A stretch of DNA of 64,000 nucleotides from an uncultured bacterium (lineage in GTDB: Bacteria; Bacteroidota; Rhodothermia; Rhodothermales; DASSAV01): positions 231,309 through 295,308 of the forward strand of contig CBINFS010000001.1 in NCBI GenBank assembly GCA_966250015.1, written 5' to 3'. The position numbers were made by a program, and so were the translations under genes. Each line of letters opens with the position of its first letter. Within the stretch, counting starts at the first letter, position 1. Under the pieces are notes generated by a model, which ran no database searches, had not been told where the DNA came from, and saw nothing but the letters and a program-made list of their open reading frames with translations. Positions 6,992 to 41,070 of this stretch are shown here, piece by piece.

Positions 6992-7378
6992 GGCCTTGCC
7001 CTCCAATCGTGATCGAACGCCCGGATGCGCCTGCCGGCTCACCAGACGAACTACGACGCTTCAACGGTGTTGTTTCGGTCGTAAGTGTCCTAAAATGGGT
7101 CACCTACGCTATCGATCAGTTCAAGAGTTCGCAGGGTATGCCGCTACGTTGTCACCCCGTCGTGTTAGCCTTCCGTTTGGCCTGACTGGTTGTGTCGGAG
7201 ACGTTCCGTTATCAGCCCGCTGTTACACCGCAAGTATGATTGTGGGGCAGCGCCGGTATTCCACAAAAATTATCGGTGTGGGTGAGACGAGCGTGAACCG
7301 GTACGGCCAATCATCCGTTTGGATAGGGGATTCTGAATAAGTGGAGAGCACAGCTCCTTGGAATATTTAGAGCTTCAG

Positions 7379-10351
7379 ATGGACGAACGCATCATCATTC
7401 GAGGCGCTCGCGAGCACAATCTCAAAAACATCGACCTGGACATACCGCGAAACCAGCTGGTCGTGATAACCGGCCTGTCGGGTTCGGGGAAGTCGAGCCT
7501 GGCCTTCGACACGATTTACGCCGAAGGTCAGCGGCGATACATGGAGAGCCTGAGTGCGTACGCGAGGCAGTTTCTCGGGATGATGGAGCGCCCCGACGTC
7601 GATTTCATCGACGGTTTGTCTCCGGTCATTGCCATCGAGCAAAAGACGGTCAGCCGGAACCCTCGCTCGACGGTGGGGACCGTTACGGAGATCTACGACT
7701 TCTTACGCCTTCTTTTTGCGCGGGCGGGTACCGCGTACTCGTACGTCTCCGGCGCCCCGATGCGCAAGCAGTCCGACGACGAGATCATCGACGGCATCCT
7801 CCAGTTTCCGGAGGGCACCCGCGTCCTGATCCTTGCGCCGCTCGTGAAGGGACGAAAAGGCCATTATCGCGAGCTGTTCGAGCAGATCACGCGCCAGGGA
7901 TTCCAGCGCGTCCGCATCGACGGGGAGGTGCGTGAGGTCACACAGGGGATGCGCGTCGACCGGTACAAGACGCACGACATCGAAGTGGTCGTGGACCGGA
8001 TCGTGGTGAAGGAGGGCGTGCGGCCCCGCGTGAGCCAGTCGGTGGAGACGGCGCTCGGGATGGGGAGCGGGACCCTGATTGCCTGCGTCGTCGGCCTCCC
8101 GGAAGACGCTGAAGGAAATTTTCCTTCGGTGCCTTACGACGTCCTGTTCAGCCGGCATTTGTTTAGCCCGGAGGACGGGATCTCCTACGATGATCCGTCC
8201 CCGAACACCTTTTCGTTCAACTCACCCTACGGCGCGTGTCCGGTCTGTAACGGCCTCGGCTCGCAACGCGAGCTCGACATCGATTTGCTTATTCCAGACA
8301 AATCGAAATCGATCGCGGAAGGCGCACTGGCCCCTATTGGCAAACCGCGGGACATCTGGATTTTCAGCCAGCTACGGGCAGTCGCCGACGCCTACGGCTT
8401 CGACTTCGACACGCCATTCAACCGCCTTTCGGAGGAGCAGCAAAACGTGATTCTCCACGGGGCCGGTGACCGGCAGTTCGACATCGTTTATCACTACAAG
8501 GATCGGGAGGTTCGCTACAAGCATCGCTTCGGCGGACTTTTCGAACACCTGCACCACACGTACGACAGCACGACGTCTCCATCGCAACGGAAGTGGGCCG
8601 AGTCCTACATGCGGGAGATGCCCTGCAAGGAGTGCGGAGGAGGCCGGTTAAAACGGGAGAGCCTCTCGTATAGAATCGGCGGGAAAAACATCGCCGAGCT
8701 GGTGGCGATGGACCTGACGTCGCTGCGCCGATTCTTCGACGACGTGGAGTTCAGCGAGCGGAATCGAATCATCGCGGAGCCGATCATAAAAGAGATCTGC
8801 GAGCGGCTCGACTTTTTGATCAACGTCGGAGTAGAGTATCTGAACCTCGATCGTCCGGCGCGGACGCTTTCCGGCGGCGAAAGCCAGCGAATTCGGCTGG
8901 CCACGCAGATCGGCACGCAGCTCGTCGGCGTGCTCTACGTGCTGGACGAACCGAGCATCGGGCTTCACCCGCGGGACAACCATCGGTTGATCGAATCACT
9001 CAAGTTGCTGCGCGACCTCGACAACTCCGTGCTCGTCGTAGAGCACGACCGGGACATGATCGAATCGGCAGATTTCGTCGTTGATCTCGGCCCGGGCGCC
9101 GGTGAGCGTGGAGGAGAGGTCGTTCGAGCGGCATCGCCGAAGGAGTTGCTGGTTTCGTCAAACGGCCACGTGGGCCTGACGGCCTCATACCTGAAAGGGG
9201 AAAAGCACATCGGTGTCCCGAAGCATCGCCGGCCCGGAAATGGCCAGCACCTGCGCCTGTACGGAGCAACCGGACACAACCTCAAGGGGGACACGCTGGA
9301 CCTTCCGCTGGGCATGTTCGTCTGCGTGACGGGCGTGTCCGGATCGGGCAAGTCGAGCCTGATCAACCAAACGTTATATCCGATCCTGGCCGGCCGTTTC
9401 CACCATGCCCGTGAGGTCCCGCTGCCGTACGAACGGATCGAGGGACTCGAACACATCGATAAGGTGATCGACATCGATCAGAGCCCGATCGGCCGTACGC
9501 CCCGGTCGAATCCGGCGACCTACACGGGTCTTTTCAGCCACATCCGCGATCTTTTTGCGCTTCTGCCGGAGTCCAAGATCCGGGGTTATAAGCCCGGCCG
9601 TTTTTCCTTCAACGTGAAGGGAGGACGGTGCGAGACGTGTAAGGGCGCCGGGATCGTAAAGCTGGAGATGAATTTCCTCCCGGACGTCTACGTCGAATGT
9701 GAGACTTGTCACGGCAAACGCTACAACGCCGAGACCCTCGAAGTCCGCTACAAAGGCAAATCCATCGCGGACGTTCTCAACATGACGGTGGCGGAGGCGC
9801 TGGAATTTTTCGAGAACGTGCCCAGGATCGAGCGGAAACTGAGAACGCTTCATTCGGTGGGGCTCGATTACATTCGCCTGGGCCAGCAGGCCACACGCCT
9901 GTCGGGGGGTGAAGCCCAGCGGGTCAAGCTCTCGAAGGAGCTCTCCCGTCCGGGCACGGGGAAAACGCTGTACATCCTGGATGAGCCCACGACGGGTCTA
10001 CATTTCGAGGACATTCGCCAGCTTCTGCTGGTGCTACAGGCACTCGTGCGAAAAGGGAATACGGTGCTCGTCATCGAGCACAACATGGACGTCGTCAAGG
10101 TGGCGGACTGGGTGATCGACATGGGTCCCGAAGGAGGCGAAGCCGGCGGCTCCATCATCTTCTCCGGCACTCCGGAAGACCTGGTCAAAAGCGGCACCTA
10201 CACCGGGCAGGCCCTCAAAATCGAGCTCGAACGATCGGCCTACGCTCCGTCCGAAAACGGCATGGACGAGCTAATCGACCTCGATTCTCTGGTGGCTGAC
10301 GACGAAGAAGCGGACGAAAGCGACCTGGAAGAGGAAGCCGAAGAAGAGTAA
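7379..10351 (+). CDS. uvrA: Excinuclease ABC subunit A (UvrA) with acidic C-terminal tail
   Basis: N-terminus [23 protein letters not shown], two ABC ATPase modules ([25 protein letters not shown] signatures) and zinc-finger cysteines ([16 protein letters not shown]; CETCHGKRY). The ATG at 7379 is preferred over the TTG at 7358. Confidence 0.96.
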
Positions 10352-14318: not shown

Positions 14319-15692
14319 ATGACACAGCCTACAAAGATCATTCTCGCAGAGAAAGACGCTCCCACACACTGGTACAACATCGCGGCAGACATGCCTGCGC
14401 TTGGGATTGAGATGCCCCCCGTATTGCATCCCGGCACCCATCAACCGATCGGTCCTGACGACCTCGCACCGCTCTTCCCCATGGCCCTGATCCAGCAGGA
14501 AGTCAGCACGGAACGGTACATCGAGATTCCGGACGAGGTGCGGGAGGTTTATCGACTCTGGCGGCCGACCCCTCTGATTCGGGCGCGTCACTGGGAAAAA
14601 GCGTTGGACACCCCTGCGGAGATCTATTACAAATATGAAGGCGTGAGCCCGTCGGGGAGCCACAAGACCAACACGGCCCTTGCGCAGGCGTATTACAACG
14701 CAAGGGAAGGTACGAAACGGATCACGACGGAAACGGGAGCGGGGCAGTGGGGCAGCGCCCTGAGCTATGCCTGCCAGATTTTTGGGATCGAGTGCAAAGT
14801 GTACATGGTGCGGGTGAGCTACGAGCAGAAGCCGTACCGGCGCATCCTGATGGAGACGATGGGCGCCACGGTCATCCCTTCGCCGAGCCGTGAAACGCAG
14901 GCCGGCCGGGCAATCCTTGCCGAGCATCCGGACAGCTCCGGCAGCCTCGGCATCGCCATCAGCGAGGCGGTCGAGGAGGCTGTGTCGCGTGACGACACGC
15001 ACTATTCGCTGGGTAGCGTCCTGAACCACGTGATGCTACACCAGACGGTGATCGGTCAGGAGGTGATCAAGCAGCTCGAGCTGATCGGAGCCGACTGGCC
15101 GGACGTGGTGGTGGGCTGCACGGGAGGCGGCAGCAATTTCGCCGGCCTCGCCTTCCCATTCCTTGGCGCCATGGTGGAGCGGGGAGCGAAGACGCGGATC
15201 CTGGCCGTTGAGCCGTCGGCCTCCCCAAGCCTCACGCGGGGCAAATACGCATACGACTTTGGCGACACGGCACGCCTGACGCCCCTGGTGAAAATGTATA
15301 CCCTGGGCCACGACTTCGTCCCCGCGCCCATTCACGCGGGCGGGCTCCGTTATCACGGCATGAGCCCGCAGGTCAGCGCACTTCATCACAAGGGTTTGCT
15401 CGACGCCCGTGCCGCGAAACAGAACGAAATTTTTGAGGCCAACGTCAGTTTTGCGCGAGCCGAGGGCATTCTTCCAGCGCCTGAAACCGGTCATGCCGTC
15501 TGGGGCGCCATGAAAGAAGCGCTCGAAGCCCGTGAGCGGGGAGAGCGACGTACGATCGTGCTCGGCCTCAGCGGACACGGCCACTTCGACCTTAGCTCTT
15601 ACGAGGCGTACCTGTCCGGCAAGCTTGAGGATTACGAGTATCCCGAGGAGCAGGTAGAAGCCAGCCTGGCCGCCTTGCCGCAATTTGATTGA
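14319..15692 (+). CDS. trpB2: TrpB-like PLP-dependent enzyme (tryptophan synthase beta chain type 2)
   Basis: A 457-aa ORF with a long N-terminal extension (WYNIAADMP...), the PLP lysine region ([15 protein letters not shown]) and a glycine-rich loop ([11 protein letters not shown]). Confidence 0.85.
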
Positions 15693-15876: not shown

Positions 15877-18081
15877 ATGAAAAGCGGATATTTTGTTCTC
15901 TTTGTACTCTTTCTCTATTCAGTGCCCGCCTGGTCGCAGGATCTGGCGCCGATGCAAGTGGATCGGGTCAACGGGCCGATTCAGCTCGACGGACTGCCCT
16001 TCGAGCCGGCGTGGGATGCCATCGAGCCGTTGCCTCTCATCCAGTACGAACCCAACCCCGGTGAACCGGCGACGGAAAAAACGGAGATACGTATCGCCTA
16101 CGACGACGAGTACATCTATTTCTCGATGCGGGCATACGATTCGGACAAGACGGGCATCCGGGCCAATACCCTCTACCGGGACGATCTGAGCGGGGACGAT
16201 CACTTCGAGATTCTGCTCGACACCTTCAACGACAACGAGACAGGCCTCGTCTTTACGACGACCCCTGCCGGCATCCGAAGAGAAGCGGCGGTTTCGAACG
16301 ACGCGAGCGGAGCTTTTAGCGCGTGGTTGAACGTGAGCTTCAACACCTTCTGGGACGTCAAATCCGTCGTCGACGAGCGAGGCTGGTTCACCGAGCTCCG
16401 AATTCCGTTTTCGAGCCTTCGTTTCCAGGACGATAACGGGCGCGTCGTGATGGGATTCAGCGTGCAGCGCAAAATCGCACGCCGCTCGGAGCGGTTGATC
16501 TACCCGCCCGTTTCGCCGAGCATTTCGTGGGGTTTCTTGAAGCCGTCGCTGGCACGCAAGATCGTGTTCGAGGGCGTCTACAGCCGTAAGCCGCTCTACG
16601 TTACCCCTTATGCCTTGAGCGGGCTCGAGCACGCCAGCGGCTTCGATGCGCTCGACAAATCGTGGGGCGAGGACGAGTTCAAGCGGGAAATCGGCGTCGA
16701 CCTGAAATACGGGATCACGAACAATCTCACGCTCGACCTGACCGTCAATACCGATTTTGCGCAGGTGGAAGCCGACGACCAGCTGGTCAATCTGACCCGA
16801 TTTTCGCTCTTTTATCCTGAAAAGCGACAGTTCTTTCAGGAACGCGCCGGGATATTCGAATTCAACACGGGCGGATTGAGCCGCCTTTTCCACAGCAGGA
16901 GGATCGGACTTACTGACGACGGGCAGCCGGTGCGGTTGCTGGGTGGAGCCAGAGTCGTTGGGCGGGTCGGCGATTGGGACCTGGGCTTCATCAACATGCA
17001 GACCGATGAATACCGGGATATTCCGTCGGAGAACTTCGGGGTCCTTCGCGTGAGACGACGCTTCCTGAACGACTATTCGTTTGCCGGAGGTATGGTGACG
17101 AACCGAATTGGTCTGGACGGCACCTACTCGACGGCGTACGGGCTCGACAGTAACATCCGGTTGTTTGGCGACGATTACCTCTCGATTCAGTGGGCGCAGA
17201 CGTTCGACGACCGGATCGTCGACTCCGGTGATTTGAATGGCATCAACTCGGGCCGCGTCAATGCGCTCGTCGAGCGTCGGCGGAGGCAGGGGTTCGGGTA
17301 TGCGACCGGCCTTACCTGGTCGGGACCCCACTTCAACCCGGGTCTCGGTTTTATCCAGCGGTCGGACTTTTCGATGTTTGATCAGACCGTTTCGTATAGC
17401 TGGATACCGGGGTTGACGTCCAGTCTGCTCTGGCACACGCTTGGTTTCCAGGGCGCCGTGTACCTGCGGAATCAGGATCGTTCGGTCGAAACGGCTGAGA
17501 TCGGGCCAGAATACACGTTTGGCCGCAGGTCGGGTTCGACTGGGACTGTCGAGCTCAAGATGATTTACGAGGACCTTCTGTTTCCCTTCTCGCTATCGAA
17601 CGACGCCGTCGTCCCGGCCGGGAGCTACACGTTTTACCAGGCCAACGTGCAGTACCGGATGCCCCAGACGAGTCTCAAACAGATGGGCTTAAACCTCAAC
17701 GTGGGCTCGTTTTACGACGGGCACCGGATCTCAGCCGGATTCACCCCGGCGTGGTACGTATCGAAGCACCTGCGGCTCAGCGGCGAGTACACCTACAATC
17801 TCGTCCGTTTTCCGGATCGCGACCAGCGCTTCGACGCCCACATCGCCCGCCTTCGCATCGGGACCGCGCTGAACACGGCGCTTTCGACGAACGCCTTCGT
17901 GCAATACAACAGTGCGTCCCGGGCGTTCTCGGCCAACGTCAGGTTCCGTTACAACTTCAGGGAAGGGAACGATCTGTGGATCGTGTTCAGCCGGAACGAT
18001 TGGGTGAACATGCGGCCCGTGTTGCCGCTTGCAGACACGCAGACGATCCTCTTGAAGTACACCTACACCTTCGACATGTAG
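15877..18081 (+). CDS. DUF5916-family secreted/outer-membrane protein with N-terminal CBM9-like domain
   Basis: Signal peptide, then a CBM9-like segment (DGLPFEPAWDAIEPL..., YIYFSMRAYD) and a long beta-rich C-terminal region. It is paralogous to the partial ORF at 62673-64000. Confidence 0.65.
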   Translation: MKSGYFVLFVLFLYSVPAWSQDLAPMQVDRVNGPIQLDGLPFEPAWDAIEPLPLIQYEPNPGEPATEKTEIRIAYDDEYIYFSMRAYDSDKTGIRANTLYRDDLSGDDHFEILLDTFNDNETGLVFTTTPAGIRREAAVSNDASGAFSAWLNVSFNTFWDVKSVVDERGWFTELRIPFSSLRFQDDNGRVVMGFSVQRKIARRSERLIYPPVSPSISWGFLKPSLARKIVFEGVYSRKPLYVTPYALSGLEHASGFDALDKSWGEDEFKREIGVDLKYGITNNLTLDLTVNTDFAQVEADDQLVNLTRFSLFYPEKRQFFQERAGIFEFNTGGLSRLFHSRRIGLTDDGQPVRLLGGARVVGRVGDWDLGFINMQTDEYRDIPSENFGVLRVRRRFLNDYSFAGGMVTNRIGLDGTYSTAYGLDSNIRLFGDDYLSIQWAQTFDDRIVDSGDLNGINSGRVNALVERRRRQGFGYATGLTWSGPHFNPGLGFIQRSDFSMFDQTVSYSWIPGLTSSLLWHTLGFQGAVYLRNQDRSVETAEIGPEYTFGRRSGSTGTVELKMIYEDLLFPFSLSNDAVVPAGSYTFYQANVQYRMPQTSLKQMGLNLNVGSFYDGHRISAGFTPAWYVSKHLRLSGEYTYNLVRFPDRDQRFDAHIARLRIGTALNTALSTNAFVQYNSASRAFSANVRFRYNFREGNDLWIVFSRNDWVNMRPVLPLADTQTILLKYTYTFDM

Positions 18082-18104
18082 CGCTTGGGCGCCGGGAGGT
18101 AAGG

Positions 18105-18422
18105 TCATTCTTCTTCGCCTTTCGATCCCGGCAGGCCGGTGTGGGAGCCGTCTCCTTCTGAAATCTCGTCGAGCAGCTCCTCAGCCTGCTCTCCGACCTG
18201 TTCGAGAATGTCGATTGCGGAGTCGGTCGGGCGTTCGAGGATCACGAGGGCTGCCAGGCACATCGATGGAGCGTCTCCCTGGTGAGCGCCGTAAGCGGCT
18301 CCTCCCATCGGGCTCACGTGCGCTACCCGCCAGCCCCGGCCGAGGTGGATGTTGAGCTCGTCCAGACCGCGTGTTTTGACAGTGTCGGTGGTTACGATCA
18401 GCGCTTTTTGCTCGGTTTTCAT
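18105..18422 (-). CDS. Small hypothetical protein with acidic C-terminus
   Basis: A 105-aa ORF with good coding composition. No family was recognised. Confidence 0.4.
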   Translation of the reverse strand: MKTEQKALIVTTDTVKTRGLDELNIHLGRGWRVAHVSPMGGAAYGAHQGDAPSMCLAALVILERPTDSAIDILEQVGEQAEELLDEISEGDGSHTGLPGSKGEEE

Positions 18423-18681
18423 AGTATCCTCGGCCTTCTATTCTCGACCCGCAACCCCTCAAAAATGCATGGATGCGCAGTAAAAACAGGTATCCCGGTG
18501 GTCACCTTCGCGATGCCCCGAGTGACCCGTGGAACGAAGCAGACTTCACGTCATTAATGGCGTTCACTTAAAAGCATTATCGGGCCCTGTGCGTGCCGTT
18601 ACTCGATTCGACCCACAACCGACGGCGTGGGTTTCGATGGGAGACGGCCTGCGATTTAAGCTAAAGAACATCGTTCAAAGA

Positions 18682-19674
18682 ATGCGGGTCGGGTTGGTAT
18701 ACGATTTATTCGAGGACTACCCCTGGGCAGAGGGAGACCCGTCCGATGCCGATGCCGAAAACGAGCCCGTCGAAACCGTTGAGGCGATCGCTGAGGCCGT
18801 TCGGATACTCGGCCACAAACCGGTTTCCATTGGCAGTGCATTCGACGTGTTGAAGCACCTGGGCAAGATCGACGTGGACGTCGTCGTCAACATCGCCGAG
18901 GGGGCTGGCAGCCGCAATCGAGAAGGATTCGTACCGACGCTGCTGGAAATGGCGGGGATCCCGTACCTCGGCTCTGATGCCCTGACGCTTTCCCTGAGCC
19001 TGGACAAAGCGTGGACGAAGGACCTTGCCGTGGCCGCGGGAATACCGACGCCGCCCTACCGGGTTTATTCGTCTGTTTCTGAAGTCGACACAGGCGACCT
19101 GCCCGGGCTGTTTCCGCTTTTCGTCAAGCCCCGCTATGAGGGGTCGTCGAAAGGCATTTTTGCCACGAGCCGCGTGGACGACGCAGAGTCTCTTTTGCGC
19201 GAGGTGGAGCGGATTACGACGGAATATCGGCAGGATGCCCTCGTCGAGGTTTTCATCGAGGGGGGAGGTGAATTCACCGTGTGTATCACGGGAAACGACT
19301 CGCCGGAGGCTTTCCCTGTACTTCAGCGGGCCGTGGAGCGGGCAACTCGTATCGGTCTCCACGCGTTGGAGCACCGGGGTGCACCAGCCGGCGAGTGGGA
19401 CTACCTTCTCGAAGGGAGCATCACCCCGAAACTCGAGCGACGCCTTCAGAAGGACGCGGTGCGCATTTACGAAAAGCTCGAGTGCAAAGATTTCGCGAGG
19501 GTGGACTTTCGTGTGGACGGAAAGGGCAAGCCCTGGTTTCTGGAAATCAATCCCTTACCCACTTTTGCAACGGATGGCACCTTTGCCATCGTGGCGGAGC
19601 TGATCGGCAAGCCCTATCCGGAGTTTCTGGCGAGTGTTCTGCGAAAAGGCTTCAAACGACTGGGGTTCGACTAA
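18682..19674 (+). CDS. D-alanine--D-alanine ligase-like ATP-grasp enzyme
   Basis: Ddl-like N-domain (RVGLVYDLF...EAVRILGHKPVSIG) and ATP-grasp fold (FPLFVKPRYEGSSKGI..., FLEINPLP). The start is taken at MRVGLVYD. Confidence 0.75.
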   Translation: MRVGLVYDLFEDYPWAEGDPSDADAENEPVETVEAIAEAVRILGHKPVSIGSAFDVLKHLGKIDVDVVVNIAEGAGSRNREGFVPTLLEMAGIPYLGSDALTLSLSLDKAWTKDLAVAAGIPTPPYRVYSSVSEVDTGDLPGLFPLFVKPRYEGSSKGIFATSRVDDAESLLREVERITTEYRQDALVEVFIEGGGEFTVCITGNDSPEAFPVLQRAVERATRIGLHALEHRGAPAGEWDYLLEGSITPKLERRLQKDAVRIYEKLECKDFARVDFRVDGKGKPWFLEINPLPTFATDGTFAIVAELIGKPYPEFLASVLRKGFKRLGFD

Positions 19675-19712
19675 AAATTGAATGCCTGACGGACAGGCTG
19701 TAGGAGACGGGC

Positions 19713-20918
19713 ATGATTAATGGATCCTTACAAAACGGGATCGATCCGGAACGGATGACGGAGTGGAGAGACTGGAAGTGGCAAATGCGCAACCGTATCC
19801 ACCGCGAAGAGACGCTCCGGCAGTACATCAATCCAACTGACGACGAGCTTGCGGCGATCGAGGCGACGCGCAACGTATTCCGGTGGAATATCACGCCCTA
19901 TTACGCCTCGTTGATGGATCCCGACGACCCCGAGTGTCCCATCCGGCGTCAGGTCGTTCCGCGGATGAGTGAGCTGGAGCCGGACATCGTCGGGGTGATC
20001 GATCCGCTGGAGGAAGTTGCCCATTCACCGGTAAAGAATCTGATTCACAACTATCGAGATCGGGTTGCTTTTTGTGTAACGGCTGAATGTGCCATTTACT
20101 GCCGGTACTGCCTTCGGAAGCGTATGGTGGGCGACGCGGATCATTTCCTGAACCGGGAGGAGGTTCAGGCCGCCATCGATTACATTGCGGCGCATAGTGA
20201 AATCCGCGACGTGCTGTTGACGGGTGGCGATCCGCTGACGTTCAGCGATAAAAATCTGGACTGGCTGCTCGGGCGATTGCGGGCGATCCCGCACGTCGAG
20301 GTGATCCGGATCGGGTCGCGGATGCCGGTCAAGCTGCCGTATCGTATTACACCGGAGCTTTGTGAGGTTTTGTCTGCGCACCATCCGATCTGGCTGAACA
20401 CCCATTTCAATCACCCGAAGGAGCTGACCACGGATGCGGCCGAAGCGGTGGATCGGCTTTTGAGGGCGGGTGTACCGGTCGGGAATCAGACGGTCTTGCT
20501 CCGGGGCATCAACGACCGCGTTGAGACGATGCAAAAACTTCTGGAGGGGCTGGTAGGGATGCGCGTGCGTCCCTATTATCTTTACCAGGCTCAGGTACTT
20601 GGTGGGACTGCCCACTTCCGGACGTCGATCGAAAAGGGGATCGAGATTATGAAGGCGTTGCAGGGGCGTACGACGGGTTTTGCCATCCCGAAATACGTGC
20701 TCGATACGCCTTACGGCAAGGTGCCCCTGAACGGTACGTACATCCGCGGTCGGTGCGGGGACTACGTCATTATGGAGACCTACAGCGGGCAGTTGTGGGC
20801 AGAACCCAATCCGATTCCACCCGGATCGTCGTGTTCTTACCGATTGCCGGAGATTGAATGGCCGGAAGGGGTGGATACCATCCCGACCGGCGCCCCTACT
20901 TTCATACCGGTACAGTAG
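19713..20918 (+). CDS. KamA-family radical SAM lysine 2,3-aminomutase
   Basis: Radical SAM CxxxCxxC (CAIYCRYC), the KamA N-terminal region (WKWQMRNRI...) and a C-terminal Zn-binding Cys cluster. Confidence 0.88.
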   Translation: MINGSLQNGIDPERMTEWRDWKWQMRNRIHREETLRQYINPTDDELAAIEATRNVFRWNITPYYASLMDPDDPECPIRRQVVPRMSELEPDIVGVIDPLEEVAHSPVKNLIHNYRDRVAFCVTAECAIYCRYCLRKRMVGDADHFLNREEVQAAIDYIAAHSEIRDVLLTGGDPLTFSDKNLDWLLGRLRAIPHVEVIRIGSRMPVKLPYRITPELCEVLSAHHPIWLNTHFNHPKELTTDAAEAVDRLLRAGVPVGNQTVLLRGINDRVETMQKLLEGLVGMRVRPYYLYQAQVLGGTAHFRTSIEKGIEIMKALQGRTTGFAIPKYVLDTPYGKVPLNGTYIRGRCGDYVIMETYSGQLWAEPNPIPPGSSCSYRLPEIEWPEGVDTIPTGAPTFIPVQ

Positions 20919-21050
20919 GGCAGTGTTCGAGGAGGAGTGTGGAGGTCAGGTGTGGCGAAACGTTTGACTTTGCCTGTATGTGCTGGTAGATTGAGCACCT
21001 TCCTACTACTCTCATTACTTAATTCTTAACGGCCTCACTCATTCTGCCGT

Positions 21051-22385
21051 ATGCTACGTGTTCTCTTCATCGTTCTTGCTGTTGTAGCGGTGGCGCTCGC
21101 ATTTGTACTCAGGCTCCCCGAGCTCTATATCGCGGCGGGAGTGCTTGTCGTGCTGGCCCTGGTCGTATTGCTCGTTCAAATGAGGAACAGGCACGAAAAA
21201 GATCAGGCGATCTACGGGTCGGGAGGCCGTTCTGCATCGAAGGATAAGCTTACTCCTCGGGAAGAAGAACTGTCGTCGCTGGGTATCATCGACATCCGGC
21301 CGAAGGATAAGTTCGCCACGGCCGTGCCTGCCTCGAATGACGAACCTGCCGAACCCCGGGAGGATGCGTCCTGGCACAGGGAAGAAGAAGCTTTTCAGGG
21401 TGGGAACGACATTCACGTCGTACCGGCGCCGGCGCGCGTCCGTAAAAAGAACTGGTCGGCCGATGCGGATGAGAGTCCTGCGCAGGTAAAGCTCAAGAAA
21501 GACGTCATCGTACCTTTTCTTCAGTCGCTCCTGACGGCCATCGACGCCAACACGGTGTGTGTGTTGAAGCTGGTCGAGGCGCCGCTCAAATACCGGATCG
21601 AGGCCATCGTCAGCAAGAACTCTTACGCGAGAACGCAGGGGTACTTCTCCTTCAAATCGCCGGTTCTTCCTGATTCCAATAGTCAGCATACGGTAACGGT
21701 TTCCCGAGTCGGAGGAGGGGGGGGTGCAACGGATAACCTGGGTTACTACCTCGAGCCCATCGCCGTCCGTCAGATTGCCGTCATGCCGATTCCGGCGACG
21801 CAAAAGGATGCGCAGCACATACTGCTAGCCGATTCCATGGAGGACGACGGGCTCAACTCGGACCGCCAGCGTTTTCTGATCGATCAGTTCGTACACCTTC
21901 TCGCCACCTTGATGGACACCGGCATCGAGGATCGGGCCGGGCAGAGCGTATCGGCGCTGCGTCCACGTCGGGAGATCATCGCTGAAGAGATGAAGCGTGC
22001 CCGCAAAACGGGGCAGTCGCTGGCGCTCGCGCTCGTACACTTGCAACGAGCGGAGCAAGTGGCCGAAAAGGGCGCCACCGTCGTTCGAAAAACGGAGCAA
22101 GCGCTGGAGGCCCGGATCAAAGGTGCGCTCGATGGCGGGCGCGTCGAGCGATTCGGTGAGCTCACCTACGGTGTCCTGTACAACGGGAACGTGTCGGAGG
22201 TAGAACGCTGGGCCCTTGCGCTTCAGCGCGAGCTGGCCGAAGAGACCGGGCTGCTCGAAGGGGGAGTCAGTATCGGCATTGCCATGCTCGACGATCGGCA
22301 CGAAAGTGCAGACGAACTGCGCGCCGACGCCACGGAAGCCTTGCGGGAAGCGTTCGAAACCGGAGCGTGTACAATCATCGAATAG
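21051..22385 (+). CDS. Membrane protein with GAF-like middle region and degenerate GGDEF domain
   Basis: Two N-terminal TM helices. The C-terminal region resembles GGDEF, but the GG(D/E)EF site reads RFGELTYGV, so it is probably catalytically inactive. Confidence 0.5.
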   Translation: MLRVLFIVLAVVAVALAFVLRLPELYIAAGVLVVLALVVLLVQMRNRHEKDQAIYGSGGRSASKDKLTPREEELSSLGIIDIRPKDKFATAVPASNDEPAEPREDASWHREEEAFQGGNDIHVVPAPARVRKKNWSADADESPAQVKLKKDVIVPFLQSLLTAIDANTVCVLKLVEAPLKYRIEAIVSKNSYARTQGYFSFKSPVLPDSNSQHTVTVSRVGGGGGATDNLGYYLEPIAVRQIAVMPIPATQKDAQHILLADSMEDDGLNSDRQRFLIDQFVHLLATLMDTGIEDRAGQSVSALRPRREIIAEEMKRARKTGQSLALALVHLQRAEQVAEKGATVVRKTEQALEARIKGALDGGRVERFGELTYGVLYNGNVSEVERWALALQRELAEETGLLEGGVSIGIAMLDDRHESADELRADATEALREAFETGACTIIE

Positions 22386-36272: not shown

Positions 36273-37400
36273 CTATCGGCACGGTTGATCGATCTCTGCC
36301 GGGCCCTGGCTACGTAAAAAGTGCAGAAGTGGGCTCTCAGTCTCGTCCAGGCCAGGGGTTGGTGCCTGCTTTTCGCAATCGCGCCACAATTGGAGGAAGG
36401 TGCCGTTTTCGTATGCGGACACCAGCGCCGGATGGATGTAGTACTGACGGCAAACCGTGGTGGTATTTCCGAGCTCGGCAGAAACCCGTTTGACCATCGC
36501 GACGAGGTTTCTTTTCAGGTCTTTTTCTGAGTCCGGAAGCCCGATCTCGCATAAGAAACGGGCCGCTCGCACCGTGCCGCCCCAGGTGCGGAAATCCTTA
36601 GCCGTCAGGTCTCTGCCCGTCGTTTCTTTTATGTAGGCATTTACGTCGGATGACCCGATCGTGCGTCGCGTCCCGTCGCTTTCATAATACTGGAACAGCT
36701 CGTACCCCGGGACGTCGCGGCAGCTTCGTACGATCCGGGCAAGCCTTTCGTCGTCGAGCTGGATCGTGTGCTTTTTCCCGCTTTTGCCCTTGAACGAAAA
36801 GGTGCAGGATTCGCCCGTGATCTGAACGTGCTTGTCCCTGAGCGTCGTAAGCCCGTACGATTGATTCTCTTTCGCGTAGGCGTCATTTCCGATCCGGATG
36901 AGGGTGCGGTCGAGGAGGGTCAGCACGGTGGCGAGTACCTTGTCGCGGGAGAGGCCTTTCAGGCGAAGGTCGTGTTCAGCTCGTGCCCGAAGCTGCGGCA
37001 GGGCCTCACCGAAGGAGACCATGCGGTTGAATTTGGTCTCGTTTCGGACGCGCTCCCATTCGGGGTGGTAGATGTACTGCTTGCGGCCTTTTTCGTCCCG
37101 GCCCGTCACCTGAAGGTGCCCTTCCGGGTCCTCGCAGATCCACACGTCGGTCCAGGCTGCCGGGATGACCAGCTCCGCGACACGCGCCCGCAGGGATGGG
37201 TCTCTGACGCGATTGCCCTCCGGGTCGAGGAGGACAAACCCTCGACCGTGCCGCCTGCGTCTGAACCCCGGCTCTTCGTCTGATACGTACCGCAGACCGG
37301 CGAGGCGTGCCGAAAACTCCGGGTGAGCGGCCGAACCGATTCCCGCCTGTCCGTCTCCCTCAGGACTCATCCTGTACTTTTCAAAAGTGGCGTTCGACAT
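36273..37400 (-). CDS. DNA topoisomerase IB (poxvirus/eukaryote-like, bacterial TopIB)
   Basis: Typical bacterial TopIB sequence (YIYHPEWERVRNE, KDFRTWGGT, RQYYIHPALV). The start MSNATFEKY overlaps the upstream SDR stop as ATGA. Confidence 0.8.
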   Translation of the reverse strand: MSNATFEKYRMSPEGDGQAGIGSAAHPEFSARLAGLRYVSDEEPGFRRRRHGRGFVLLDPEGNRVRDPSLRARVAELVIPAAWTDVWICEDPEGHLQVTGRDEKGRKQYIYHPEWERVRNETKFNRMVSFGEALPQLRARAEHDLRLKGLSRDKVLATVLTLLDRTLIRIGNDAYAKENQSYGLTTLRDKHVQITGESCTFSFKGKSGKKHTIQLDDERLARIVRSCRDVPGYELFQYYESDGTRRTIGSSDVNAYIKETTGRDLTAKDFRTWGGTVRAARFLCEIGLPDSEKDLKRNLVAMVKRVSAELGNTTTVCRQYYIHPALVSAYENGTFLQLWRDCEKQAPTPGLDETESPLLHFLRSQGPAEIDQPCR

Positions 37401-38263
37401 CAACCCCCCACCATTCTTCCGCCGTTCGGGTGCAGCGTCTGGCCGGTGATGTACGAGGCGTCTTCCGAGGCCAGGAATACGTAGCATGGTGCAACTTCCT
37501 CAGGCTGCCCCGGCCTGCCCATCGGCGTGTTTTTCCCGAATGCTTCGACCTTCTCCGGCGGAAACGACGCCGGAATGAGCGGTGTCCAGATGGGTCCCGG
37601 CGCAACGGCGTTGACCCGGATGTTTTTGTCGGCGAGGTTCTGGGAGAGTGCCCGGGTGAATGCCAGGATGGCTCCCTTCGTCGACGAATAGTCGATCAGG
37701 GTTTCGTTTCCCTGGAACGCAGTGACCGAGGTGGTATTGATGATCGAGCTGCCCTCCTTCATGTGCTCGAGAGCAGCCTGGGTCAAAAAGAACATTGAGT
37801 AGACGTTCGTCCGGAACGTCTTTTCGAGCTGCTCTTCGGAGATGCCTTCCAGCTCTTCCTGGACGTATTGTACGGCCGCATTGTTGACCAGTACATCCAG
37901 CCTGCCGAACTCGTCGACAACCTGCTGGACGAATTGCCGGCAGAACGACCGGTTTCCGACGTCGCCCGGAACGAGCAGGCAGCGGCCCCCCTCTTCCTCC
38001 ACCATTTTCCGGGTTTCAGCGGCGTCCTCGTGTTCGTTCAGGTACCCGATGGCCACATCGGCCCCTTCGCGTGCGAAAAGCACGGCAACCGAGCGGCCGA
38101 TGCCGCTGTCCCCACCCGTGATGATGGCGACCTTATCCTTCAGCTTTCCCGAGCCGCGGTAGTACGGCGCCTCCGATTGCGGCTTCGGCGTCATTTCGCC
38201 TTCAAATCCGGGTTGCTGTTCCTGTTGCTGTGGTGGTAGCTGTTCCGGTCGTTCCGTTGGCAT
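37400..38263 (-). CDS. SDR family oxidoreductase (YghA-like general stress type)
   Basis: TGGDSGIGR Rossmann motif, NNAA, and a YxxxK catalytic region. Confidence 0.88.
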   Translation of the reverse strand: MPTERPEQLPPQQQEQQPGFEGEMTPKPQSEAPYYRGSGKLKDKVAIITGGDSGIGRSVAVLFAREGADVAIGYLNEHEDAAETRKMVEEEGGRCLLVPGDVGNRSFCRQFVQQVVDEFGRLDVLVNNAAVQYVQEELEGISEEQLEKTFRTNVYSMFFLTQAALEHMKEGSSIINTTSVTAFQGNETLIDYSSTKGAILAFTRALSQNLADKNIRVNAVAPGPIWTPLIPASFPPEKVEAFGKNTPMGRPGQPEEVAPCYVFLASEDASYITGQTLHPNGGRMVGG

Positions 38264-39519: not shown

Positions 39520-41070
39520 TTATCTATCGTTTCCGACCAAAGCCAAAACTCCGTCCGCTACATTACGTTCCTCGCTTAAACGCGGTACTTTCGTCTGGCC
39601 GCTCAGTTTTCCGCGTGTATTCTTTATCCAGCGGTAGAATGTTCCCTCCGGGAGGACGACGATTTCGGGCATTTCAAACGCGCGAGCCTCCCGGCGGATC
39701 TGATAGTGCCGGTTAACCTTTTGGAGGTGATCGTCTACCGCCTGTGCAAACTGCTGGAGATCGGCCGGGGGGTTCTCAAACTCGATAAGCCACTGGTGAG
39801 CCGGCATACGGTCCGGCTCAAAAGCACGCGGCGCCACGTGGAAATTGAGGACCTGAGCCCCGGTAACCTCGCACGCGTGGAGGATGGCAGCCCTGGCCTC
39901 CTCGCTGAATACCGCCTCGCCGTATTTGTCGATCATTTCGCTCGTCCGGCCCGCTACGATGATTTTGTGCGGGGACGTGCTCGTAAACCGGATGACGTCG
40001 CGCACGGCATACGACCAGAGCCCGCTGCACGTCGTGACGTACATGGCGTACCGGACGTCCGGTTCGACGTCCCGGATCGTGTATCGCCTGGCGCCTTCAC
40101 GGTTCAATTCGTCCATCCGCACGAACTCGAAGAAGACGCCGTTGTCCAGGTGCAGGAGCAGCGAGGGGTCGTCGAGGTCGGACTGGAAGGCAAAAAATCC
40201 TTCCGACGCCCCGTACGTTTCGACGTAGTGAAGGTCCGGCTTTCCGATCAGGGAGTCCAGCAGTGATCGGTAAGAGCTCAGGGCAACCCCGCCCGACATG
40301 AATACCTGCAGGTTAGGCCACACCTCACCGACTGTGCTGACGTTCCGGTTGTTAAGCATGTTGTAGCGCTCGATGAGCAGCTTGAAAAACACCATCGCCC
40401 AGGAGGGCACCATGACGATCAACCGGATGTCCATGCCGATTGTCCGCTCGACGATGGCTTCAAGCTTGCGTTCCCAATGTGGCAGGAACGCAATTTCGTT
40501 GGGTACGGCCTGATAGAGGCCTTGGAAGAAGGAAGGCGCGTGCTCGGCCTGAAGGCCGCTGACCTCGCCGACCATAATCTCGCCGTACGACGTGTCCTTC
40601 TCGATTCTTCCGGGTAAGGTCAGGTGTTTTCCGAAGAGAAAGGACGGATTACCCGACGCTGCCAGATAGTTCAGCCCGACGCCGATGCTGAACGCATTGT
40701 TTTCGGCGAGCATGTCGGTACTCACTGGGATTAGCTTCCCGGACGAAGCAGTGCCGCTGGATACGGCGAAATGGGCGAATTTTCCCGGCCAGAAGACGTC
40801 CGCAGCGCCCCGGCGCACCCGGTCGATGTCCGTGCGGAAGTGTTCGTAATCGTGCAGCGGAACGCGCTCCTGATAGGCCGATATGACGTCCTCCTGTCGT
40901 GCAAGCTCTTCAAAACCGAATCGCCGCCCCCATTCCGTGCCCGCACTACGCCTGAGCAGACGGCGTAGCAATTCGGCCTGTGTGCGAACGGGATGGGTGA
41001 CAAACCGCCTTATTTTGCGGTAAGGGCCAAAAGGGGCGAGCCGAACGACCTGGCTCAGGAGTTCACACAT
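39520..41070 (-). CDS. GH3 family acyl-acid amido synthetase-like protein
   Basis: A 516-aa adenylate-forming fold with GH3-family motifs (SSGTASSGKLIPV...). Confidence 0.75.
   Translation of the reverse strand: MCELLSQVVRLAPFGPYRKIRRFVTHPVRTQAELLRRLLRRSAGTEWGRRFGFEELARQEDVISAYQERVPLHDYEHFRTDIDRVRRGAADVFWPGKFAHFAVSSGTASSGKLIPVSTDMLAENNAFSIGVGLNYLAASGNPSFLFGKHLTLPGRIEKDTSYGEIMVGEVSGLQAEHAPSFFQGLYQAVPNEIAFLPHWERKLEAIVERTIGMDIRLIVMVPSWAMVFFKLLIERYNMLNNRNVSTVGEVWPNLQVFMSGGVALSSYRSLLDSLIGKPDLHYVETYGASEGFFAFQSDLDDPSLLLHLDNGVFFEFVRMDELNREGARRYTIRDVEPDVRYAMYVTTCSGLWSYAVRDVIRFTSTSPHKIIVAGRTSEMIDKYGEAVFSEEARAAILHACEVTGAQVLNFHVAPRAFEPDRMPAHQWLIEFENPPADLQQFAQAVDDHLQKVNRHYQIRREARAFEMPEIVVLPEGTFYRWIKNTRGKLSGQTKVPRLSEERNVADGVLALVGNDR

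What the first reader, a model, noticed from the sequence alone, without database searches (positions are those of the whole stretch)
18682..20918. Ddl-like ATP-grasp ligase immediately upstream of a KamA-family lysine 2,3-aminomutase
KamA-family enzymes make (R)- or (S)-beta-lysine. Known uses are lysine fermentation, N-epsilon-acetyl-beta-lysine osmolyte synthesis (which needs a GNAT partner), or EF-P beta-lysylation (which needs the aaRS-like EpmA). Here the only adjacent partner is an ATP-grasp ligase of the D-Ala-D-Ala ligase family, 39 bp upstream on the same strand. No EpmA, acetyltransferase or fermentation genes lie nearby. This suggests ATP-dependent ligation of beta-lysine to another amino acid or to a protein side chain, as RimK does, that is, a possibly uncharacterised beta-lysine-containing product or protein modification. 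A degenerate-GGDEF membrane protein follows downstream.
Basis: inference. Interest (0 to 1): 0.55.

Follow-up and report, generated by a model that had tools for sequence, protein, structure and literature searches.

The report
Conserved aminomutase plus ATP-grasp ligase pair
A radical-SAM enzyme that makes a beta-amino acid sits next to a ligase that looks like D-alanine ligase but is not one; the same pair recurs in several bacterial phyla and is sometimes fused into one protein, so it most likely makes an undescribed small beta-amino-acid peptide.

Summary
Window 18682-19674 (+) encodes a 330-aa ATP-grasp ligase with a Ddl fold. Window 19713-20918 (+) encodes a 401-aa KamA-family aminomutase 38 nt downstream. 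The window is a Rhodothermales chromosome.

- The ligase is not a housekeeping Ddl. It scores 133 bits against a cut-off of 243, and the D-Ala-binding motifs are gone while the ATP/Mg residues are kept.
- The pairing is strongly conserved. In 78 of 85 related loci a KamA gene lies downstream on the same strand. These loci come from Rhodothermales, Myxococcota and Ca. Omnitrophota.
- At least 14 protein clusters fuse the two enzymes into one polypeptide, in both orders.

Other lineages carry one KamA with two or three ligase modules. That fits stepwise peptide assembly better than a single protein modification.

In the window's KamA clade, one of the two aspartates that hold lysine's epsilon-amine in the solved lysine aminomutase is glutamine (Q294), and no substrate-specific model reaches its cut-off. 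It may be beta-lysine or another basic beta-amino acid.

The product is unknown. I found no description of this pairing.

The parts
18682..19674 (+). ATP-grasp amide ligase with a Ddl fold. It belongs to an uncharacterised subfamily with the motifs D22-x3-E26-[FY]-[DE], T32, N-I-A-E73-G-x3-R78-N-R80-E81 and L-E288-I-N290-P-L-P.
   Evidence: Pfam PF07478, 92 bits. Ddl NCBIfam models give 133 bits against a cut-off of 243. 499 representative clusters match at E<1e-30, and the family invariants come. The ATP/Mg/acyl-phosphate residues are kept (K109, K149, E189, E197, R273, D275, E288, N290), whereas the D-Ala motifs of Ddl are lost. AF2 model pLDDT 88.5; top PDB folds are Ddl/VanG.
19675..19712 (+). 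38-nt spacer between ligase and aminomutase, with a Shine-Dalgarno-like AGGAG. No terminator-like site on the + strand.
   Evidence: Sequence; promoter/terminator scan. In related loci the two genes overlap by 4 nt (L036, L060, L077).
19713..20918 (+). KamA-family radical-SAM/PLP amino-acid 2,3-aminomutase of the 'Q-type' clade. It has CxxxCxxC at C126/C130/C133, Q294 in place of CsLAM D293, D331 (= D330), the PLP lysine K336 (= K337) and R269 in place of the Zn ligand C268.
   Evidence: TIGR00238, 359 bits against 199; every substrate-specific equivalog is below its cut-off. Alignment to 2A5H. Motif positions. All 120 nearest homologues carry YQ[AS]Q.
21051..22385 (+). 444-aa protein with two N-terminal TM helices, a low-complexity linker and a C-terminal degenerate GGDEF-like domain. 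It is a lineage-specific third gene that stays behind KamA in Rhodothermales. It possibly has its own promoter at 20964-20992. Its role is unknown.
   Evidence: Translation. GGDEF E = 0.031. Homologue present after KamA in 14 loci, and still there in R. litoris and R. profundi, where the flanks differ. Absent from the Myxococcota and Omnitrophota versions. Promoter-like site.
18105..18422 (-). 105-aa acidic protein of unknown function, transcribed divergently from the ligase. It is a conserved neighbour in many Rhodothermales only, and its membership of the system is doubtful.
   Evidence: Homologues with a conserved 'VEGDGA' motif in the acidic tail in 17 loci. No hit in Pfam, NCBIfam or PADLOC. 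The gene called at that position is a cyclase in R. litoris and FadL in R. profundi; I did not search those loci for the small protein. Replaced by a VanZ-like membrane protein in Myxococcota.
18423..18681 (.). Divergent intergenic region upstream of the ligase. No known riboswitch or other Rfam element.
   Evidence: Rfam at gathering threshold on the whole window gave 0 hits. A permissive search of 18050-18750 gave only a chance snoRNA match at E = 2.1.

Best explanation
This is a two-enzyme biosynthetic cassette.

Step 1: the KamA-family radical-SAM/PLP enzyme moves the alpha-amino group of a basic L-amino acid to C3, giving a beta-amino acid. The substrate is lysine in the D-type relatives. 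In the window's Q-type clade it is lysine or a near analogue such as arginine, ornithine or a side-chain-modified lysine.

Step 2: the Ddl-fold ATP-grasp enzyme uses ATP to turn a carboxylate into an acyl-phosphate and couples it to an amine. This forms an amide between the beta-amino acid and a second amino acid, or another copy of itself. The product is a small soluble (iso)peptide.

With one ligase module, as here, I expect a dipeptide-type or short homo-oligomeric product. Lineages with two or three modules would make longer ones. Possible roles are a compatible solute, an organic cation, or another small metabolite.

What is shown:
- the family membership of both proteins;
- intact catalytic residues;
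- loss of the Ddl substrate motifs;
- conserved adjacency and gene fusion.

What is inferred:
- that the ligase uses the aminomutase product;
- which partner supplies the carboxylate;
- that the product is a free small molecule;
- its physiological role.
For: 1. Adjacency. KamA lies downstream on the same strand in 21 of 24 Rhodothermales genome loci and 57 of 61 metagenome loci that have enough downstream sequence. In 70 of these 78 it starts within 400 nt. In several loci the two genes overlap by 4 nt.

2. Breadth. The source names on the database entries give Rhodothermales, Myxococcota and Ca. Omnitrophota. Flanking genes differ between and within these groups while the pair stays together.

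3. Rosetta-stone fusions. 11 clusters are ATP-grasp-KamA and 3 are KamA-ATP-grasp.

4. Variable ligase number per KamA:
   - two adjacent ligase genes in Omnitrophota;
   - KamA, then a tandem double ligase, then a third ligase, with an amino-acid permease nearby (L114);
   - ligase-ligase-GNAT-KamA (L123);
   - KamA-ligase (L124).

5. The ligase keeps all ATP/Mg/acyl-phosphate residues but has replaced the D-Ala1 and D-Ala2 determinants. Family-invariant acidic and arginine residues take their place.

6. More distant members of the same ligase family pair with Peptidase_S58, the DmpA/BapA family. From my own knowledge this family includes beta-aminopeptidases, which fits beta- or D-peptide metabolism.

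7. The Omnitrophota partner KamA passes the AblA lysine 2,3-aminomutase cut-off (529 against 525) and keeps both substrate aspartates.

8. Base composition of the pair equals that of the window. Ligase and KamA divergence track each other (r = 0.98), so the two genes were inherited together.
Against: - There is no biochemical evidence, and no product is known.
- No third gene is conserved across phyla, such as an exporter or regulator, that would point to a metabolite role.
- The two genes are separated by unrelated genes in 6 Rhodothermales loci. In Salinibacter sp. 10B and two or three MAG loci no KamA lies within 2-7 kb. Co-transcription is therefore not obligatory.
- From my own knowledge, NMR surveys of solutes in Rhodothermus marinus and Salinibacter ruber have not reported a beta-lysine peptide.
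- Q294 makes the amino-acid substrate uncertain.
- Envelope-related neighbours in some lineages (MurJ, VanZ-like, LPG_synthase_C) fit the cell-envelope rival.
Confidence: 0.5

Rival explanations
1. Cell-envelope modification. The ligase attaches the beta-amino acid to a peptidoglycan precursor or makes a dipeptide that enters the stem peptide, as VanA-type ligases do. Alternatively the product decorates a lipid head group, changing surface charge.
For: The closest characterised relatives are all peptidoglycan ligases. In marine Myxococcota the pair is flanked by a VanZ-like membrane protein and followed by MurJ. One ATP-grasp-KamA fusion is followed by a stand-alone LPG_synthase_C domain. In Omnitrophota, GT2 and Wzy_C genes lie upstream. 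In Rhodothermales a membrane protein always follows KamA.
Against: None of these neighbours is shared between phyla. The MurJ match is just under its equivalog cut-off (206 against 236), and MurJ may simply be the housekeeping gene in local synteny. The D-Ala-binding residues that a Van-like ligase would keep for D-Ala1 are gone. No Mur ligase that could add such a dipeptide is linked.
Confidence: 0.2
2. Post-translational protein modification. The ligase adds the beta-amino acid to a side chain or terminus of a protein. It would then be an ATP-grasp substitute for EpmA acting on EF-P, or a RimK/TTL-like tailing enzyme.
For: EpmA/EpmB shows that beta-lysine can be a protein modification. In Omnitrophota the cassette is followed by an EF-G paralogue and a YchF-like gene. 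A conserved small acidic protein lies next to the ligase in Rhodothermales. A short TTL Pfam match passes its cut-off (22.2 against 20.1).
Against: No EF-P or other candidate target is linked in any of more than 110 loci. The small acidic protein is restricted to part of one order. The KamA proteins are LAM/AblA-like and score far below the EpmB cut-off (261 against 369). Two or three ligase modules per KamA are not expected for a single-site modification. The TTL match covers only the generic Mg-binding strand (residues 262-299). Bacteroidetes EF-Ps belong to the PGKGP subfamily, which is proposed to work unmodified (bioRxiv 10.1101/2023.09.18.558224). No paper in the searched library links EF-P with an ATP-grasp enzyme.
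Confidence: 0.12
3. Reversed order of reactions. The ATP-grasp enzyme first acylates the side-chain amine of L-lysine (or ornithine) with an amino-acid carboxylate. The Q-type KamA then shifts the alpha-amine of that neutral conjugate.
For: The D293-to-Q change removes one of the two negative charges that hold a free epsilon-ammonium in CsLAM, and would suit an amide. In every Q-type system the ligase comes first, both as separate genes and in the fusions, whereas D-type fusions have KamA first.
Against: Gene order does not predict reaction order, and D-type Omnitrophota operons also place the ligases first. No KamA-family enzyme is known to accept a side-chain-acylated substrate (from my own knowledge).
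Confidence: 0.12
4. No functional link. The ATP-grasp gene is the organism's D-Ala-D-Ala ligase, or a redundant paralogue, and merely sits next to a lysine aminomutase.
For: Public annotation calls it 'D-alanine--D-alanine ligase'. I could not check whether a canonical ddl lies elsewhere in this genome.
Against: It scores 133 bits against the Ddl cut-off of 243. The GGxSxExxVS motif, H63, E68, K215/Y216 and S281/L282 are all lost. There are fusions to KamA in both orders. Adjacency holds in three phyla with different flanks.
Confidence: 0.02

Closest known systems
D-alanine--D-alanine ligase and VanA/VanG-type ligases (Ddl family, PF07478/PF01820)
   Same: Closest relatives by sequence and fold. 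Same three-domain ATP-grasp architecture and the same ATP, Mg and acyl-phosphate-stabilising residues.
   Different: Only 20-27% identical and below all curated Ddl cut-offs. The N-terminal D-Ala1 motif, the omega-loop Lys-Tyr and the Ser-Leu that bind D-Ala2 are replaced. The genomic partner is an aminomutase, not mur/dcw genes.
AblA/AblB pathway for N-epsilon-acetyl-beta-lysine (methanogens, some bacteria)
   Same: A lysine 2,3-aminomutase is encoded beside the enzyme that derivatises its beta-lysine product into a small solute. The Omnitrophota-type KamA even passes the AblA model.
   Different: The tailoring enzyme here is an ATP-dependent ligase that forms an amide with an amino-acid carboxylate or amine, not a GNAT acetyltransferase. 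The window's KamA is below the AblA cut-off and has Q294. One lineage has both a GNAT and two ligases (L123).
EpmB/EpmA beta-lysylation of EF-P
   Same: A KamA-family aminomutase plus an ATP-dependent enzyme that forms an amide with the beta-lysine carboxylate.
   Different: EpmA is a class II aminoacyl-tRNA-synthetase paralogue that works through an adenylate, and its target is a protein. Here the ligase is an ATP-grasp enzyme, the KamA is not EpmB-like (261 against 369), and no EF-P is linked.
Carnosine synthase (CARNS1) and bacterial L-amino-acid ligases (BacD/YwfE, TabS, RizA); Ngg of the NAGGN osmolyte pathway
   Same: ATP-grasp enzymes that make free di- or oligopeptides without ribosome or NRPS. 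Carnosine synthase specifically ligates a beta-amino acid (beta-alanine). This is the closest working analogy (from my own knowledge).
   Different: These belong to different ATP-grasp subfamilies, and no sequence relationship beyond the superfamily was seen here. None is coupled or fused to a radical-SAM aminomutase.
Arginine 2,3-aminomutase BlsG in blasticidin S biosynthesis
   Same: A KamA-family enzyme whose beta-amino acid is then joined by an amide bond to another building block. The arginine model is nominally the window KamA's best equivalog hit (461 bits). In the fused Q-type lineage the neighbour is a GntC/VioD-like PLP enzyme of arginine-derivative chemistry.
   Different: The score is far below the cut-off of 600. 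The window pair lies in a conserved chromosomal core context, not in a secondary-metabolite cluster. I could not verify the nature of the blasticidin ligase in the papers available.

Membership tests
D-alanine--D-alanine ligase (Ddl) | Reaches the curated family score (NCBIfam NF002378 / TIGR01205) | tested here: not met
   133.1 bits against 243, and 127.6 against 245.65.
D-alanine--D-alanine ligase (Ddl) | ATP-grasp fold with Ddl-type domains and conserved ATP/Mg/acyl-phosphate residues (DdlB K97, K144, E180, E187, R255, D257, E270, N272) | tested here: met
   All eight are conserved (K109, K149, E189, E197, R273, D275, E288, N290). Foldseek top hits are Ddl/VanG at TM about 0.75.
D-alanine--D-alanine ligase (Ddl) | D-Ala binding determinants: N-terminal GGxSxExxVS (E15), H63, E68, omega-loop K215-Y216, S281-L282 | tested here: not met
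   The motif is absent.
D-alanine--D-alanine ligase (Ddl) | It is the genome's only ddl (housekeeping role) | not testable with these tools
   Only 64 kb of the genome is available, and there is no second Ddl-like gene in it.
KamA family radical-SAM aminomutases (TIGR00238) | Family score, the CxxxCxxC cluster motif and the PLP-binding lysine | tested here: met
   358.7 bits against 199.2. C126/C130/C133 and K336, aligned to CsLAM C125/C129/C132 and K337.
Lysine 2,3-aminomutase (KamA/AblA, TIGR03820) | Equivalog score | tested here: not met
   451.4 bits against 525.4. The Omnitrophota partner KamA does pass, at 529.2.
Lysine 2,3-aminomutase (KamA/AblA, TIGR03820) | Both aspartates that bind the lysine epsilon-ammonium in CsLAM (D293, D330; their role is from my own knowledge of Lepore et al. 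2005) | tested here: not met
   D293 is Q294 and D330 is kept as D331. Q is present in all 120 nearest homologues and all ATP-grasp-KamA fusions.
EF-P beta-lysylation system (EpmB + EpmA) | EpmB equivalog score, with an EpmA (class II aaRS-like) partner and efp | tested here: not met
   261.2 bits against 369.3. No tRNA-synt_2-like gene or efp in the window or in more than 110 related loci.
AblA/AblB N-epsilon-acetyl-beta-lysine pathway | GNAT acetyltransferase adjacent to the aminomutase | tested here: not met
   No GNAT in the window. A GNAT occurs only in one distant lineage, L123, and it does not match AblB.
Arginine / glutamate 2,3-aminomutase (TIGR04468 / TIGR04368) | Equivalog score | tested here: not met
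   460.8 bits against 600, and 443.2 against 650.
ATP-grasp amino-acid (peptide) ligases as a functional class | Forms an amide between two amino acids or amines through an acyl-phosphate | not testable with these tools
   Catalytic residues are intact, but activity needs an enzyme assay.

The most novel reading that the evidence does not exclude
A widespread, modular, ribosome- and NRPS-independent route to beta-amino-acid peptides. One KamA-type aminomutase feeds one to three dedicated Ddl-like ATP-grasp modules, encoded separately, in tandem or fused. These build a previously unknown class of beta-lysine- or beta-arginine-type oligopeptide metabolites in Rhodothermales, Myxococcota, Omnitrophota and other lineages. 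The window's Q-type KamA would define a new substrate specificity within the family.
Probability: 0.4. Interest if true: 0.7.

Novelty: new variant of a known kind. Interest (0 to 1): 0.6.

Why it matters
Beta-amino acids made by radical-SAM aminomutases are known to go four ways: fermentation, one acetylated osmolyte, EF-P modification, and NRPS or related antibiotic pathways. A conserved and repeatedly fused partnership with an ATP-grasp ligase would add a fifth route: direct ATP-dependent assembly of small beta-peptides.

It would also give a function to a large protein family. About 500 clusters at 50% identity match at E<1e-30, and public databases currently label these proteins 'D-alanine--D-alanine ligase'. 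That label could mislead cell-wall and vancomycin-resistance annotation.

The pair occurs in cultured, partly tractable organisms: Rhodothermus, Rhodocaloribacter, Longimonas and, in a MAG assigned to the genus, Salinibacter. The product and its role in salt or heat adaptation, or in the envelope, can therefore be tested directly. Such ligases could also be useful biocatalysts for making beta-peptides.

Tried and rejected
Checks that led nowhere:
- A riboswitch or other RNA element upstream of the ligase: none.
- A defence-system role: no PADLOC hit for any of the four genes.
- An EF-P link: no efp in the window or in any fetched locus.
- A shared third gene: the ~450-aa protein after KamA in Rhodothermales is unrelated to the 475-aa protein in the L114 cluster and is absent from other phyla.
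- The small acidic upstream protein as a carrier or target (LysW- or S6-like C-terminal glutamates): its C-terminus is not conserved. Only an internal 'VEGDGA' is, and the protein is confined to part of Rhodothermales.
- A profile search of the 444-aa family against PDB sequences: nothing, so the GGDEF assignment stays weak.
- The mirror-tree correlation (r = 0.98) mainly reflects shared phylogeny. I do not count it as independent evidence of co-evolution.

Literature:
- Searches for ATP-grasp together with aminomutase, KamA, beta-lysine or EF-P found no description of this pairing.
- The search syntax cannot match '2,3-aminomutase'.
- Three key papers were not held: Iyer et al. 2009 on amidoligases, Lepore et al. 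2005 and Ruzicka & Frey 2007.
- I could not confirm from the available text that the blasticidin ligase BlsI is an ATP-grasp enzyme.
Full report
WHAT IS THERE

The window is a piece of a Rhodothermales chromosome of about 58% G+C. The closest named relatives of both proteins come from Rhodocaloribacter, Rhodothermus, Longimonas and Salinibacter.

At 18682-19674 (+) lies a 330-aa ATP-grasp protein. It matches Pfam Dala_Dala_lig_C at 92 bits.

At 19713-20918 (+), 38 nt later and preceded by AGGAG, lies a 401-aa KamA-family radical-SAM/PLP aminomutase.

The composition of the pair equals that of its surroundings. No terminator-like site separates the two genes on the + strand.

I scanned every ORF of 90 aa or more in the 64-kb window against Pfam. 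There is no EpmA-like synthetase paralogue, no GNAT, no EF-P and no lysine-fermentation gene.

THE LIGASE IS NOT A Ddl

The best NCBIfam Ddl models give 133 and 128 bits, against cut-offs of 243 and 246. The closest solved structures are Ddl and VanG, at 20-27% identity. The AF2 model has pLDDT 88.5.

I aligned the protein with E. coli DdlB and four canonical Ddls recovered in the genome scan. The residues that bind ATP and Mg and stabilise the acyl-phosphate are all present. In DdlB numbering these are K97, K144, E180, E187, R255, D257, E270 and N272.

The substrate determinants of Ddl are gone:
- The N-terminal GGxSxExxVS motif is absent.
- H63 is E73 and E68 is R80.
- The omega-loop K215-Y216 is R-G.
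- S281-L282 is G-T.

In their place the family has its own invariant residues: D22, E26, T32, E73, R78, R80 and E81.

An exhaustive HMMER search of 1.84 billion cluster representatives found 499 clusters at E<1e-30. This is well above the level at which true Ddls match, so it is a large, distinct and unnamed subfamily. Public records call its members 'D-alanine--D-alanine ligase' or 'ATP-grasp domain-containing protein'.

THE PAIRING IS CONSERVED AND REPEATEDLY FUSED

Genome scan:
- 25 Rhodothermales loci were found, and 24 have enough downstream sequence.
- In 21 of these 24 a KamA gene follows on the same strand.
- In 15 it follows directly. In 6 it comes after one to three unrelated inserted genes: Dabb, HAD, or a sugar-phosphate isomerase-like TIM barrel.

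Metagenome scan:
- The scan used a family alignment and returned 80 loci at 41-65% identity, of which 61 have enough downstream sequence.
- In 57 of these 61 a KamA gene follows, and in 55 it starts within 400 nt.
- Three of the four exceptions are contigs that end inside a second ligase gene.

Exact-sequence look-ups of representative proteins assign these loci to three groups:
- Rhodothermales.
- Marine Myxococcota, arranged VanZ-like(-) | ligase-KamA-MurJ-oxoprolinase.
- Candidatus Omnitrophota, arranged ligase1-ligase2-KamA followed by EF-G-like, YchF-like, purH and others.

Start and stop codons overlap by 4 nt in members of all three groups.

The flanks change while the pair stays. Rhodocaloribacter litoris and Rhodothermus profundi have quite different neighbours, but both keep ligase-KamA-(~450-aa membrane protein).

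The two enzymes also occur as single polypeptides:
- 11 clusters at 90% identity are ATP-grasp-KamA.
- 3 clusters at 50% identity are KamA-ATP-grasp.

Further arrangements were seen:
- KamA, a tandem double ligase, a third ligase, and an amino-acid permease nearby (L114).
- Ligase-ligase-GNAT-KamA (L123).
- KamA-ligase (L124).

WHAT THE AMINOMUTASE MAKES

The Omnitrophota partner KamA passes the curated AblA lysine 2,3-aminomutase model (529 against 525). It keeps both aspartates that bind the lysine epsilon-ammonium in the C. subterminale structure (the role of D293 and D330 is from my own knowledge of Lepore et al. 2005). For those systems beta-lysine is well founded.

The window's enzyme is different:
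- It keeps the Fe-S cysteines (C126, C130, C133), R134, D330 (as D331) and the PLP lysine (K336).
- It has Q294 for D293 and a two-residue shorter loop before the PLP lysine.
- It has lost the Zn cysteines.
- It scores about equally, and below cut-off, against the arginine (461/600), lysine (451/525) and glutamate (443/650) models.
- Gln at this position is found in all 120 nearest homologues and in every ATP-grasp-KamA fusion.

There is one hint in the fused Q-type lineage. There the operon also encodes a PLP enzyme most similar to GntC/VioD, which act on hydroxy-arginine, and a RaSEA-like radical-SAM protein.

The substrate here is thus lysine or a related basic amino acid, or possibly a side-chain-modified lysine. 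'Beta-lysine' should be treated as provisional.

MOST LIKELY MECHANISM

The aminomutase supplies a beta-amino acid. The ATP-grasp enzyme forms an acyl-phosphate on one carboxylate and couples it to an amine, giving a small amide-linked product. I favour a free small peptide (confidence about 0.5) for these reasons:
- The number of ligase modules per KamA varies from one to three, as in stepwise peptide assembly.
- No candidate target protein is conserved.
- Neighbours in other lineages are a permease, a GNAT and an EamA transporter.
- More distant members of the same ligase family are paired with S58 peptidases instead of KamA. From my own knowledge the S58 (DmpA/BapA) family includes beta-aminopeptidases.

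The working analogies are carnosine synthase, which is an ATP-grasp enzyme that ligates a beta-amino acid, bacterial L-amino-acid ligases, and the AblA/AblB osmolyte pair.

RIVALS

- Envelope modification (0.2). This rests on MurJ and VanZ-like neighbours in Myxococcota, an LPG_synthase_C neighbour of one fusion, and the Ddl ancestry.
- Protein modification, including an EpmA substitute (0.12). This is weakened by the absence of efp, the non-EpmB character of the KamA, the multiple ligases, and the report that Bacteroidetes EF-Ps belong to the PGKGP subfamily proposed to work unmodified.
- Reversed reaction order, with the ligase acting first (0.12). This is suggested only by Q294 and gene order.
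- Chance adjacency to a housekeeping Ddl. This is essentially excluded (0.02).

LINEAGE-SPECIFIC COMPANIONS IN THE WINDOW

The 444-aa gene at 21051-22385 stays behind KamA throughout Rhodothermales. It has two TM helices and a C-terminal domain that matches GGDEF only at E = 0.031, with RFGELTY in place of the signature. It may have its own promoter. It is absent from other phyla.

The divergent 105-aa acidic protein at 18105-18422 is conserved in many Rhodothermales. It has an invariant 'VEGDGA' in its tail but no known family.

Neither gene can be assigned a role.

NOVELTY

I found no description of this pairing in the searchable literature. This comes with caveats: several relevant subscription papers were not held, and the search syntax cannot match '2,3-aminomutase'.

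Both enzyme kinds are well known. What is new is their dedicated, widespread and often fused partnership, plus a KamA clade with an altered substrate pocket. I rate it a new variant of a known kind, with interest 0.6.

LIMITS

Nothing here is biochemical. I could not test whether a canonical ddl exists elsewhere in the genome, and I could not run whole-genome co-occurrence profiles.

Noticed in passing
window 18105-18422 (-): 105-aa acidic protein with no known family. It is transcribed divergently from the ligase and conserved in about 17 Rhodothermales loci. It has a ~65-aa globular N-terminal part and an acidic tail carrying a conserved 'VEGDGA' motif.
   Followed up: partly
window 21051-22385 (+): Membrane-anchored protein with a degenerate GGDEF-like C-terminal domain (RFGELTY; Pfam E = 0.031), and possibly a GAF-like middle domain (a reading of the sequence by eye, not tested). 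It always follows KamA in Rhodothermales, even where the flanks differ.
   Followed up: partly
L116 8001-11126 and L118 8001-11116: Tandem double ATP-grasp proteins of the same ligase family are directly followed by a Peptidase_S58 (DmpA/BapA family) gene, with no KamA nearby. This could be a synthesis/degradation pair for a beta- or D-amino-acid peptide.
   Followed up: no
L115 5022-9258 and L112 5959-10157: Operon of a RaSEA-like radical-SAM protein (TIGR01210, 173 against 212), a GntC/VioD-like PLP enzyme (335 against 415) and an ATP-grasp-KamA fusion. It looks like a small pathway for a modified basic amino acid.
   Followed up: partly
L120 2700-5808: An ATP-grasp-KamA fusion is followed by a stand-alone LPG_synthase_C (PF09924) protein. 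That domain transfers aminoacyl groups in MprF.
   Followed up: no
L061-L109 (Omnitrophota loci), e.g. L077 11214-13175: In many Omnitrophota loci the ligase-ligase-KamA cassette is followed by a short (~650-aa) EF-G paralogue and a YchF C-terminal-domain protein. These are either translation-related neighbours or plain synteny.
   Followed up: no
window 39520-41070 (-): Bacterial homologue of the plant GH3 acyl-acid amido synthetase family, with all three GH3 domains matched. This is another amide-forming enzyme of unknown role.
   Followed up: no
window 36273-37487 (-): Bacterial type IB topoisomerase (Topoisom_I plus Top1B_N_bact). This enzyme is uncommon in bacteria.
   Followed up: no
window 14319-15692 (+) and 15877-18081 (+): TrpB-like (TrpB2) PLP enzyme standing alone without trpA, followed by a 734-aa DUF5916/CBM9 protein. 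The TrpB2 gene is syntenic with the cassette in some Rhodothermales (L001, L009, L023).
   Followed up: no
window 7358-10351 (+): 997-aa UvrA-like ABC ATPase, probably a UvrA paralogue, next to a fused MsrA-MsrB on the opposite strand.
   Followed up: no
L121 9640-11717: In Rhodothermus profundi the ligase-KamA-membrane protein module is directly followed by the TrkH/TrkA potassium uptake genes. This is a weak hint of an osmoadaptation context.
   Followed up: no
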